Below are positions 10,181 to 49,450 of a stretch of DNA of 64,000 nt, in pieces. Position 1 is the first letter of the stretch. Each line of letters opens with the position of its first letter. The DNA lies in the NCBI RefSeq assembly GCF_006345805.1, contig NC_043002.1, forward strand, positions 72,912,001-72,976,000. Direction: 5' to 3'. The stretch comes from Octopus sinensis (lineage: Eukaryota). Under the pieces are notes generated by a model. It was not told the DNA's origin, ran no database searches, and saw only the letters and a program-made list of their open reading frames with translations. The position numbers were made by a program, and so were the translations under genes.

Positions 10181-10497
10181 ATCATCATCATCATCACCAT
10201 CATCATCATCGTTTAACATTCGCTTTCCATGCTAGCATAGATTGGACGATTTAACTGAGGTTTAGCGAATCAGATGGCTGCACCAGGCTCCAATCTGATC
10301 TGGCAGAGTTTCTACATCTGGATGCCCTTCATAATGCCAACATCTCCGAGAGTGTAGTGAGTGCTTTTACGTGCCACCAACATGAGGGCCAGTCAGGCAG
10401 CACTGGCCATGGCCACACTCAAATGGTGCTTTTTATGTGCCACCTGCACAGGAGCCAGTCCAGCGGCACTGGTAATGACCTCACTCGAATGTTTTTT
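10181..10497 (-). mobile_element. RTE 3'UTR-type repeat
   Basis: (CAT)n-cgtttaac...ctggatgcccttc...gtgcttttacgtgccacc. Confidence 0.8.
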
Positions 10498-12559: not shown

Positions 12560-13048
12560 CCTAACAGACCTGGTAGAAACAGCAGCCAAATCTCCCTCAA
12601 ATCACACCTTACTGTCTTATGTATGTATATATGTATGTATGAGCCAATGAGGGGGACCTCTACATGGTAGCTAGACCTGGTAGAAATAGCAGCCAAATTT
12701 CCCCCAAATCACACCTTACTGTCTTATCTATGTATATATGTATGTATGAGCCTATGAGGGAGACCCCTACATGGCAGCTAGACCTGGTAGAAATAGCAGC
12801 CAAATTTCCCCCAAATCACACCTTACTGTCTTATCTATGTAATATGTATGTATGAGCCTATGAGGGAGACCCCTACATGGCAGCTAGACCTGGTAGAAAT
12901 AGCAGCCAAATTCCCCCAAATCACACCTTACTGTCTTATCTATGTATATATGTATGTATGAGCCTATGAGGGAGACCCCTACATGGCAGCTAGACATGGT
13001 AGAAATAGCAGCCAAATCTTCCTCAAATCACACCTTACTGTCTTATCT
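12560..13048. repeat. ~107-bp minisatellite, about 4.5 units
   Basis: ctacatggcagctagacctggtagaaatagcagccaaatttcccccaaatcacaccttactgtcttatc... repeated in tandem. Confidence 0.95.
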
Positions 13049-17599: not shown

Positions 17600-18153
17600 T
17601 CATCATCATCATCATCATCGTTTAATGTCCGTTCTCCATGCTAGCATGGGTTGGACGGTTCGACTGGGGATCTGGGAAGCCAGAAGGCTGCACCAGGCTC
17701 CGGTCTTATCTGGCAATGTTTCTACAGCTGGATGCCCCTCCTAACGCCAACCACTCCGTAAGTGTAGTGGGTGCTTTTTATGTGCCACCTGCACTGGTGC
17801 CAGGCGAGGCTGGCATCGGCCACGGTTGGATTGGTGCATTTTAAGTGCCACCTGCACGGAAGCCAGTCGAGGTGGCACTGACTTCGGCCACAATTCGGAT
17901 GGTGCTTTTTACGTGCCACTGACACGGAAGCCAGTTGAGGCGGCGCTGGCATTGGCCACGATTCAGATAGTGCTTTTTACGTATCTCCAGTCCAGGGGTC
18001 CTGGCATCTGCCGGGTGCCAGTCATAGGATTGGTTCAATTTCGATTCCAATTTCGATTTCACTTGCCCCAACAGGTCTTCGTTGGCATAGGTGCCTGTCG
18101 TCGGATGAGGTTCGATATCGACTTCGCTTGCCTCAACAGGTCTTTGTGTGTCC
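17600..18153 (-). mobile_element. RTE 3'UTR-type repeat with internal ~55-bp tandem units
   Basis: (CAT)n tail; repeated ggtgcttttta(c/t)gtgccac modules. Confidence 0.8.
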
Positions 18154-31391: not shown

Positions 31392-31880
31392 TAACAGACA
31401 TGGTAGAAACAGCAGCCAAATCTCCCTCAAATCACACCTTACTGTCTTATGTATGTATATATGTATGTATGAGCCAATGAGGGGGACCTCTACATGGTAG
31501 CTAGACCTGGTAGAAATAGCAGCCAAATTTCCCCCAAATCACACCTTACTGTCTTATCTATGTATATATGTATGTATGAGCCTATGAGGGAGACCCCTAC
31601 ATGGCAGCTAGACCTGGTAGAAATAGCAGCCAAATTTCCCCCAAATCACACCTTACTGTCTTATCTATGTATATATGTATGTATGAGCCTATGAGGGAGA
31701 CCCCTACATGGCAGCTAGACCTGGTAGAAATAGCAGCCAAATTTCCCCCAAATCACACCTTACTGTCTTATCTATGTATATATGTATGTATGAGCCTATG
31801 AGGGAGACCCCTACATGGCAGCTAGACATGGTAGAAATAGCAGCCAAATCTCCCTCAAATCACACCTTACTGTCTTATCT
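31392..31880. repeat. 107-bp minisatellite (copy 2)
   Basis: The period shows in ORF starts 31494, 31601, 31708, 31815. Confidence 0.95.
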
Positions 31881-35950: not shown

Positions 35951-36131
35951 TATTATTATTATTATTCTGCCGTTATGTTCTGAGTTCAAATTCTGCCTAG
36001 GTCAACTTTGCCTTTCATCCTTTCAGGGTTGATTAAATAGGTTCCAGTTAATCACTGGAGTCGATGTAATCAACTTAATCCTCTTGTCTGTCCCCACTAT
36101 GTTTAGCCCCCTGGGGGCAATAAAGAAATAA

Positions 36132-36163
<32 letters not shown>

Positions 36164-36370
36164 CATTATTAAAGTGAGAAGCTGGCAGAATCATTAGCAC
36201 ACTGGACGAAATGCTTAGCGGTATTTCACCTGTTGCTATGCTCTGAGTTCAAATTGCATTACCTTTCATCTTTTTGGGGTCAATAAATTAAGTACCAGTT
36301 GACTACTGGGGTCAATGTAATCAACTATCCCTGCCCCAATTTCAGGCCTTGTCTCTATTATAGTAAGGGT

Positions 36371-36720
36371 TATTATTATTATTATTATTCAGATCACTGC
36401 TTGGAATCGAACTTGGAATCTTGGGGTTAGTAGCCCGCGCTCTTAACCACTATGCCATGAGCATATGGCATAGTGGTTAAGAGCACGGGCTACTAACCCT
36501 AAGATTCTGAGTTCAATTCCAAGCAGTGACCTGAATAATAATAATAATAACAACAACAACAACAACAACATCGAAAAATATCTTAGGAATGAGAACCCAA
36601 GTTCGAAATTCCCCCAAGACACCTGATGAAGGCTGGAGGGTATATCAGCCAAAACATTGTGTTAACAACAAAGAAGATGAGGACAAATATCTGTCAAATG
36701 TAAATAATGTAGATAATGTA
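36371..36720 (+). mobile_element. tRNA-head palindrome plus hammerhead non-autonomous retroelement
   Basis: Inverted arms 36371-36458 / 36465-36551 each carry A box tggcatagtggtt and B box gttc(g/a)attcc; hammerhead at 36618-36663; aatgt(a/g) tail repeats. Confidence 0.7.
36618..36663 (+). ncRNA. Type I hammerhead motif (G12 mutated in this copy)
   Basis: gacac-CTGATGA-a-ggctg gagggtatat cagcc-aAAA-ca-T-T-gtgtt; stems I and II pair fully. Confidence 0.7.
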
Positions 36721-37055
36721 AATTAAGTACCAGTGAAACACTGGGGTTGATGTAATATACTAGTTCCCTCTCCACAAATTTCAGGCCTTGTGCTTTTAGT
36801 AGAAAGGATTATTATTATTATTATTATTATTATTGTTACTCTAAGGTGGCGAGCTGGCAGAATCATTAGTATGCTGGGTGAAATGCTTAGCTGTATTTCA
36901 TCTGCCGCTATGTTCTGAGTTCAGATTCTGCCAAGGTTGACTTAGCCTTTCATCCTTTCAGGGTCGATAAATTAAGTACCACTGAAACACTGGGGTCGAT
37001 GTAATTGACTTATCCCCTTCCACCAAAAATGGCTGCTCTTGTGGCAAAATTTGAA

Positions 37056-48827: not shown

Positions 48828-49450
48828 CTGTACTTGAGATGATCCGGCAAGCCAAGTGAGACCATAACCTCGTGGCCTATGCCAAGGGTGTAACCAGCCC
48901 ACTTATGTGTACCTTTCCTTCATTGGACACTAAACTCTGCTTGTGAAGACCTGTTGAGGCAAGTGAAATCGAAATCAAATTTGATGAATGGCATCCATGC
49001 TAGTGGAGTGCTAAGAGCACCATCCGAGCGCAATCGTTGCCAGAGTAGCTAACGGGCTTCTGTGCTGGTGGCACATAAAAAACCCATTCGAGTGTGATCG
49101 TTACCTGCATCACCTTACTGACACTTGTGTTGGTGGCACATGAAAAACATTCGAGCGAGGTCATTGCCAGTGCCGCTGGACTGGCTCCTGTACAGGTGGC
49201 ACGTAAAAAACACCATTTGAGCATGGTCATTGCCAGTACCACTTGACTGGCCCTCGTTCCGGTGACACGTAAAAGCACCTACTACACTCTCAGAGTGGTT
49301 GGCGTTAGGAAGGGCATCCAGCTGTAGAAACTCTGCCAGATCAAGATTGGAGCCTGGTGCAGCCATCTGGTTCGCCAGTCCTCAGTCAAATCGTCCAACT
49401 CATGCTAGTATGGAAAGCAGATGTTAAATGATGATGATGATGATGATGAT
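48828..49450 (+). mobile_element. RTE-LINE 3'UTR with tandem units and (GAT)n tail
   Basis: Starts tgctgtacttgagatgatcc, similar to the ORF end at about 57890; ends with the common tail. Confidence 0.85.

What the first reader, a model, noticed from the sequence alone, without database searches (positions are those of the whole stretch)
36371..36720. Head-to-head tRNA-promoter palindrome coupled to a hammerhead ribozyme: candidate Penelope-mobilised ribozyme SINE
Seen: two inverted copies of a tRNA-like head (A box tggcatagtggtt, anticodon-like arm ggg-ctactaa-ccc, B box gttc(g/a)attcc) face outward from a 6-nt spacer at 36459-36464, each running into (AAT)n. The right copy continues through (AAC)n to a type I hammerhead (36618-36663) with paired stems I and II, and ends in short aatgt(a/g) repeats. 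The core differences (ccgaaacgtt expected, ccaaaacatt seen) are two G>A changes at CpG. Known: Penelope-like elements carry minimal hammerheads with palindromic stem III and often show inverted 5' partial duplications; schistosome Sm-alpha joins a tRNA-type promoter to a hammerhead. Inference: a non-coding, Pol III-driven, self-cleaving family that borrows PLE reverse transcriptase rather than LINE machinery, and could make bidirectional transcripts or dsRNA. I do not know of a description in cephalopods but cannot search.
Basis: partly seen in the sequence, partly recalled or inferred. Interest (0 to 1): 0.85.

Follow-up and report, generated by a model that had tools for sequence, protein, structure and literature searches.

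The report
Penelope retrotransposon with captured tRNA promoter
This is a dead two-armed copy of the end repeat of a protein-coding Penelope retrotransposon that carries a tRNA-type promoter sequence and a hammerhead ribozyme motif; the promoter likely drives the short RNAs behind most of its thousands of copies, and possibly the whole element.

Summary
In detail: 90-nt inverted arms, A/B boxes, and a minimal hammerhead with two CpG-decay hits. It is one copy of a family of roughly 10,000-20,000 loci whose commonest hammerhead core is intact.

It is not a free-standing SINE that borrowed a Penelope tail. Longer copies run reverse transcriptase, GIY-YIG, stop, tRNA-like head, (AAT)n, hammerhead, tail, so the whole unit is the pseudo-LTR of an autonomous Penelope element. 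Penelope hallmarks are met: an inverted partner arm (54 of 90 loci), a tail on one arm only (43 of 48), and direct pLTR-ORF tandems. Two-arm inserts also carry target duplications of 10 nt or more (41 of 84).

What looks new is the tRNA-type promoter inside the pLTR. 41 of 52 arms that reach the head's start stop within -12..+8 of it, which fits Pol III transcripts. The 2.4-kb sense strand also has no shared T4 terminator run, unlike control frames, which hints that Pol III could transcribe the whole coding element. Transcription, cleavage and translation are untested; the RNA reads were uninformative.

The parts
36369..36458 (-). Left (inverted) arm: tRNA-like head from about +7, plus AAT tract; its hammerhead body is missing
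36455..36464 (.). Junction of the two arms at the small hairpin that sits at the head's 5' end (4-nt microhomology, then bases +1..+6 of the right head)
36459..36533 (+). Right tRNA-derived head, SINE-type; A box 36466-36476, B box 36510-36520
   Evidence: (natural copy L160 scores 58 against host tRNAs, shuffled maximum 54, and 72 against a host SINE head)
36534..36569 (+). (AAT)n/(AAC)n tract, likely the tail of the captured SINE; length varies and other elements often lie in it
   Evidence: origin inferred
36570..36718 (+). Penelope pseudo-LTR body, tail-less type; in tandem copies this stretch is also the start of the reading frame
36589..36591 (+). First ATG of the frame that, in tandem copies, runs through the hammerhead into the N-terminal domain (no ORF follows in this copy)
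   Evidence: open in L248, one stop in L243, frameshifted in the other 4 of 6
36618..36663 (+). Minimal type I hammerhead: stem I 36618-22/36659-63, core 36623-29, unpaired A 36630, stem II 36631-36/36645-50, palindromic stem III; predicted cut 36658|36659; G12 and G16.2 mutated here, so predicted inactive
36697..36718 (+). 9-nt AATGTAAAT-type repeats where tail-less arms end; predicted loop of a 3' stem-loop in tail-bearing copies
   Evidence: (3' ends cluster at body 138-149 or 170-173)
36170..36369 (+). Flanking unrelated SINE-like repeat with an ATT tail, abutting the left arm
   Evidence: D3, D4, D6, D7; SINE label inferred
36716..36840 (+). 3' half of another copy of that repeat, likely the insertion target
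   Evidence: (D3, D6); inference

Best explanation
The feature is a decayed two-armed insertion of the pseudo-LTR of an autonomous Penelope-type retrotransposon, whose tRNA-derived head likely acts as an internal RNA polymerase III promoter giving short RNAs that the element's own reverse transcriptase and GIY-YIG nuclease would copy back into the genome. Shown: the parent's layout (RT, GIY-YIG, stop, about 30 nt, small hairpin, head, AAT tract, hammerhead, tail); direct pLTR-ORF tandems; two-arm inserts inside one target duplication of mostly 10-15 bp; a tail on one arm only; a sharp pile-up of 5' ends at the head's start. Inferred: a SINE was captured in the 3' UTR; Pol III starts about 6 nt before tRNA +1; two RNAs, perhaps paired through the palindromic stem III, each prime on one end of a staggered cut, and the two cDNAs join by microhomology, often at the hairpin; the hammerhead cleaves only part of the RNA, as a dimer, and a cut would remove the first AUG.
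For: Parent: RT-EN-head-hammerhead collinear in 4 of 7 long copies and RT-EN-head in 5 of 7; RVT_1 E 7.8e-10; C-terminal segment nearest to GIY-YIG clusters, score 0.97; 7 homologues, all with PF26215 and 5 with RVT_1. Tandems: 16 of 20 ORF-start loci have a direct pLTR piece upstream. Insertions: inverted arm in 54 of 90; tail on one arm only in 43 of 48, Fisher p 2.6e-8; shared flank of 10 nt or more in 41 of 84 against about 0.7 shuffled. 5' ends: 41 of 52 arms stop in -12..+8, 0.038 per nt against 0.009 inside the head and 0.003 upstream; sharp edge at -7. Exact 20-mers genome-wide: 3,719 in the head, 888 just upstream, about 6:1 after calibration. Two templates: the arms differ at the T/A site N7 in 4 of 15 head-selected pairs and share only 28 of about 450 rare variants (shuffle mean 10.5). 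Cleavage hint: 6 of 125 unselected arms (5 loci) start at body 89-91, the predicted cut, and only 2 of 94 in the 28 nt before it.
Against: No direct evidence of Pol III transcription: reads from three runs of one study, of a different organism label, lie about equally in both directions and follow the copy-number gradient. The same boundary holds a hairpin that could itself favour junctions. One ORF-start locus (L242) reads through the head into upstream EN sequence, and 10 of 16 extend past the hammerhead cut, so RNAs or template jumps longer than the Pol III unit, and uncut RNAs, exist. The starts at the cut site also sit beside a 10-nt palindrome. Arms are somewhat more alike than random, so some self-copying or conversion occurs. 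Rfam and ARAGORN do not recognise the head or the ribozyme; Pfam GIY-YIG does not hit the EN segment.
Confidence: 0.68

Rival explanations
1. Ordinary Penelope with a passive passenger: the SINE head is inert, all short copies are 5'-truncated copies of a Pol II (or circular) RNA, and the pile-up comes from the hairpin stalling the RT or joining the two cDNAs.
For: The hairpin lies exactly at the boundary and many junctions use it. L242 reads through the head. Drosophila Penelope has an internal TATA-less LINE-like promoter (PMC2377424, abstract). The RNA reads give no strand excess.
Against: The hairpin is only 5 bp with a 2-nt loop, yet about 80% of arms stop there. Ends run through it to -7 and almost never fall in -8..-24; a stall would stop on its 3' side (inference). 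The perfect 10-nt palindrome in the body gives a far weaker hotspot, 0.009 per nt.
Confidence: 0.22
2. One reading: an independent non-coding ribozyme SINE, Sm-alpha-like, that acquired a Penelope 3' end and spreads from its own master copies.
For: Head and hammerhead are always linked. Most copies look like SINEs. Variant alleles exist (N7 T/A, a 3-nt deletion), which would fit several source copies.
Against: The autonomous element contains the same head and body at 79-92% identity to the window copy. 11 of 90 loci extend past the head's start into upstream parent sequence. The same variants occur in ORF-linked pLTRs. Tandem arrays are rare (3 of 90).
Confidence: 0.07
3. The palindrome is a DNA-level product (a foldback or MITE-like element, or snap-back self-copy of one cDNA) rather than two separately primed arms.
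For: Near-perfect head-to-head symmetry in this copy; arms share slightly more rare variants than chance.
Against: The arms have independent 5' truncation points and different 3' ends and can carry different N7 alleles. A self-copy cannot supply a tail that its template lacks (inference). Spacer orientation does not significantly predict the tail side (13 to 6, p 0.17).
Confidence: 0.03

Closest known systems
Penelope/Poseidon-clade Penelope-like elements (PMC8557442 passages; PMC4209133 parts 1-2 of 4)
   Same: One RT + C-terminal GIY-YIG frame; pseudo-LTR tandems; inverted 5'-truncated partner; tail at one end only; minimal hammerhead in the pLTR with an unpaired base before stem II, G10.1-C11.1 and palindromic stem III.
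   Different: A tRNA/SINE-derived A/B-box head inside the pLTR with 5' ends piling up at it, and no shared T4 run in the sense strand; neither appears in the passages I read. The tail is about 25 nt against the 30-40 reported.
Schistosome Sm-alpha / Sj-alpha hammerhead SINE-like repeats (as reviewed in PMC6765202, passages; the primary paper was not held)
   Same: Pol III-type promoter 5' of a type I hammerhead in a short repeat.
   Different: Those are non-coding tandem repeats. This unit is dispersed, inverted rather than tandem, and is part of a coding parent.
Animal non-LTR retrozymes (PMC7229834 passages; bioRxiv 10.64898/2026.07.22.740005 parts 1-3 of 5)
   Same: Short non-coding type I hammerhead units related to PLE pLTRs, proposed to be moved by PLE proteins.
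   Different: Defined as head-to-tail tandems giving circular RNA; no tRNA promoter described in what I read; no cephalopod named among the sampled groups.
Cassandra, Helenus and Ajax small-RNA-bearing LTR elements (PMC10886601; abstract start in listing and two reference passages)
   Same: A small-RNA-derived sequence within a retroelement's repeat (5S in Cassandra's LTRs).
   Different: Non-autonomous LTR elements, not PLEs.
R2 elements (PMC6765202 passages)
   Same: A coding retroelement whose RNA carries a self-cleaving ribozyme and is likely translated through an IRES-like structure; the analogy for the novel case.
   Different: HDV-type ribozyme, rDNA-specific insertion; Pol I co-transcription (recalled).

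Membership tests
EN+ Penelope-like element | RT followed by C-terminal GIY-YIG in one element | tested here: met
   the Pfam GIY-YIG model itself does not hit; all long copies fetched are broken by stops or frameshifts
EN+ Penelope-like element | Direct pseudo-LTR upstream of the ORF | tested here: met
   16 of 20 ORF-start loci
EN+ Penelope-like element | Inverted 5'-truncated copy at the 5' end | tested here: met
   54 of 90; 5 of 7 long copies carry an inverted pLTR-containing copy
EN+ Penelope-like element | Tail present at one end only | tested here: met
   43 of 48
Penelope/Poseidon clade | No Zn-finger-like linker between RT and EN; placement in an RT tree | tested here: inconclusive
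   No cysteine-rich linker seen in the translations, unlike another PLE family here; no tree with reference clades was built
PLE minimal type I hammerhead | Conserved core, unpaired base after A9, G10.1-C11.1, palindromic 15.2-16.2, short helix I | tested here: met
   column counts, 1,487 exact cores; helix II is 6 bp; the window copy itself fails at G12 and G16.2; no Rfam hit
PLE minimal type I hammerhead | Self-cleavage, as a dimer | not testable with these tools
   indirect hint only: 6 arms start at body 89-91
tRNA-derived SINE | tRNA-related head with A and B boxes | tested here: met
   isotype not assignable (20 host tRNAs of 6 isotypes compared)
tRNA-derived SINE | Non-autonomous family distinct from its partner | tested here: not met
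   the head lies within the autonomous element
tRNA-derived SINE | Pol III transcription | tested here: inconclusive
   5'-end pile-up fits; reads uninformative
Non-LTR retrozyme / Sm-alpha | Head-to-tail tandem units, each with a hammerhead | tested here: not met
   second direct body in 3 of 90 loci; only 1.5 kb of flank per side was examined
Non-LTR retrozyme / Sm-alpha | Circular monomer RNA | tested here: inconclusive
   'goes back' joints are explained by the repeated pLTR

The most novel reading that the evidence does not exclude
An autonomous, protein-coding retrotransposon that switched to RNA polymerase III: after capturing a SINE promoter in its pseudo-LTR it purged T4 terminators from its whole 2.6-kb sense strand, is transcribed end to end by Pol III, is translated without a cap from an AUG that its own hammerhead can cut off, and throws off a SINE-like swarm from the same promoter.
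Probability: 0.3. Interest if true: 0.88.

Novelty: new variant of a known kind. Interest (0 to 1): 0.62.

Why it matters
It shows a SINE-like population being born from inside its autonomous partner, a route different from a tRNA head picking up a LINE tail. If the whole element is a Pol III transcript, it would be a coding retroelement run by a polymerase thought unfit for mRNA. Apart from that, thousands of short two-arm insertions with readable target duplications, one-sided tails and allele-marked arms give a ready dataset for the Penelope integration mechanism, which PMC8557442 calls still undefined. For annotation, such copies could easily be filed as SINEs (inference).

Tried and rejected
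Rfam and ARAGORN: no tRNA or hammerhead call.

A Pfam GIY-YIG search of the genome found 147 matches, but the 20 loci fetched share nothing with this unit; the parent was found by walking upstream instead.

Spacer orientation against tail side: 13 to 6, not significant. Pure snap-back copying: rejected. A pile-up of full-length 5' ends at the hammerhead cut: 1 of 16. tRNA-Arg origin (my recalled first guess): not resolved; Ala and Arg tie at 58.

Reads from X21-X23 were uninformative on strand and start sites.

Earlier findings: nothing returned. Nine paper searches listed no description of a tRNA-headed Penelope pLTR or of this family. Two cephalopod repeat papers have no 'hammerhead' in their main text. 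Two papers were not held. Repbase, Dfam and all supplements were not seen and may hold the family under some name.

Full report
Observation. The sequence at 36369-36720 is as described. Inverted arms of 90 nt and 92% complementarity flank 36459-36464. The right arm runs head, (AAT/AAC)n, hammerhead and 9-nt repeats; the left arm has only head and AAT tract, and no second body lies in the window. ARAGORN and Rfam recognise neither tRNA nor hammerhead. The head has correctly spaced A and B boxes. A near-intact copy aligns to host tRNAs above all 500 shuffles (58 against a maximum of 54) and better to another host repeat's head (72), so a captured SINE head is the likeliest origin.

Family. Of 30 loci chosen by the body, 23 have a head nearby. 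Of 30 chosen by the head, all 30 have the body downstream and 25 an inverted partner. Both sets include the window's own locus and one duplicate. Forty 10-kb stretches at fixed positions held 3 loci, all with head plus body, or roughly 20,000 loci with wide error. Exact 20-mers give 8,409 (body), 3,719 (head) and 888 (just upstream of the head). Divided by their retention in fetched copies (0.49, 0.30, 0.43), that is about 17,000, 12,000 and 2,000 arms. In 56 copies not chosen by the body, every hammerhead core position has the canonical letter as its commonest. The main non-CpG substitution is at N7 (34 T, 19 A), which is the free core position (recalled), and 10 copies carry a 3-nt deletion in stem III. 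There are 1,487 exact intact 35-nt cores and 0 for the control. The window copy has lost G12 and G16.2 and is predicted dead.

The parent. Some copies continue upstream of the head into a GIY-YIG-type frame that stops about 30 nt before it. Walking further gave an RT (RVT_1 E 7.8e-10; weak PDB hits include telomerase RT). Four of 7 long natural copies read RT, EN, head, hammerhead in order. The EN segment is nearest to GIY-YIG clusters (0.97), although Pfam misses it. At the other end, the tail runs straight into the ORF's 5' region, and 16 of 20 such loci (20 of 40 hits fetched; one is a near-duplicate of L224) have a direct pLTR piece upstream. The frame opens at an ATG 5' of the hammerhead and passes through it: open in L248, one stop in L243, shifted in the other 4 of 6. 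In 35 of 48 body lengths the frame class is kept. So the finding is a Penelope pseudo-LTR, not a separate SINE.

Insertion anatomy. I examined 90 loci from the first 100 exact-core matches on contig 1; two of them, L153 and L154, may be a local duplication. Of the 90, 56 have a head, 54 an inverted arm, 11 extend past the head's start into upstream parent sequence and 3 have a second direct body. In 48 two-arm loci the roughly 25-nt tail is on one arm only in 43, on both in 2 and on neither in 3. Across all fetched sets, 41 of 84 two-arm loci have a shared flank of 10-17 nt, peaking at 12-13, against about 0.7 in shuffles, so both arms are one event. Inverted partners and one-sided tails are the features described for PLEs in PMC8557442 (passages). 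The arms differ at N7 in 4 of 15 head-selected pairs, with 4 concordant for the rarer allele (Fisher p 0.14 for concordance), and share 28 of about 450 rare variants against 10.5 by shuffling. That points mostly to two templates, with some self-copying or conversion. In the window copy the left body was probably deleted by recombination between the flanking repeats (inference).

The promoter question. Of 70 head-bearing arms in the 90 loci, 18 stop inside the head, 41 of the remaining 52 stop within -12..+8 of tRNA +1, and 11 go further. At base level the ends spread from about +8 to -7 and almost never fall between -8 and -24. A purine at -6 after a pyrimidine is a typical Pol III start (recalled). 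A 5-bp hairpin at the same place is the rival cause, and it clearly serves as a joining site. Reads from three RNA runs (one study, another organism label, about 6% of each run) cover the element in both directions about equally and do not decide this.

A further hint. Over about 2.4 kb of the sense strand, no four adjacent columns have T as their commonest letter; coverage sampled along it is 2-21 copies, only 2-4 in part of the 5' region. L224 has 0 T4 runs against 5.1 expected from composition (P 0.006; 3.1 and P 0.05 under a first-order model), while another PLE family has 6 per 1.8 kb. Four other single copies of this family carry 0-3 unshared runs and three of them are not significant alone. 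Twenty-eight clusters of other open frames have 87 observed against 65 expected. This family's 14 ORF segments (overlapping; two chimeric frames dropped) have 3 against 19, with Phe TTT:TTC 25:58 against 164:149. This test was post hoc and rests on one family. It is the basis of the novel case, because T4 or longer ends Pol III transcripts in animals (recalled).

Ribozyme role. A cut would separate the head and first AUG from the 3' part, yet 10 of 16 upstream pLTRs span the cut, so much template RNA is uncut or religated. That fits the low, dimer-dependent activity reported for minimal PLE hammerheads (PMC4209133, parts 1-2). Six of 125 unselected arms (5 loci) start at body 89-91, and only 2 of 94 in the 28 nt upstream; this is a weak sign of in vivo cleavage, confounded by an adjacent palindrome. 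Pairing of two RNAs through stem III would explain two-template inserts; this is untested.

Comparison and verdict. It is a member of the EN+ PLEs on all four structural tests. It is not a retrozyme or Sm-alpha member (no tandem arrays) and not a SINE family by origin, though most copies likely arise as SINEs do. PLE-derived non-autonomous hammerhead repeats are already proposed (bioRxiv 10.64898/2026.07.22.740005, parts 1-3), and a Pol III promoter plus hammerhead is known in schistosomes (PMC6765202, passages). I found no report of a tRNA-type promoter inside a PLE pLTR in nine searches; Repbase, Dfam and supplements were not seen. New variant of a known kind; interest 0.62.

Noticed in passing
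L107, L108, L117 and the match list: A second, apparently young GIY-YIG PLE family with a cysteine-rich linker before the nuclease and many copies with 781-aa open frames; no hammerhead motif matched in its fetched flanks.
   Followed up: partly
L109 742-1177; L104 about 2621: Other hammerhead-like motifs with palindromic stem III near GIY-YIG hits, one as an inverted pair; unrelated in sequence to this family.
   Followed up: no
L019, L050, L144, L152, L174, L190 (AAT tract): The AAT tract between head and body is often interrupted by several hundred bases of other repeats, some LINE-like, so it appears to be a landing pad.
   Followed up: partly
window 35960-36370 and 36716-37030: Several copies of an unrelated SINE-like repeat with ATT tails surround the finding.
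   Followed up: partly
body positions 103-160 in tail-bearing copies (e.g. L192): The tail is predicted to fold back on the body as a stem whose loop holds the 9-nt repeats where tail-less arms end, reminiscent of a bounded template region.
   Followed up: partly
window 12566-13048 and 31396-31880: The same 107-nt tandem array, with matching upstream microsatellites, occurs twice about 18.8 kb apart: a local duplication or an assembly artefact.
   Followed up: no
window 10361-10491, 17770-17982, 49132-49279: A dispersed 66-68-nt tandem unit family occurs in both orientations.
   Followed up: no
L244: A head-to-head pair in which both arms run on from the pLTR into the ORF's 5' region.
   Followed up: partly
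L111: GIY-YIG hit that looks like a cellular SLX1-type nuclease gene (label recalled) on a small contig rather than a retroelement.
   Followed up: no
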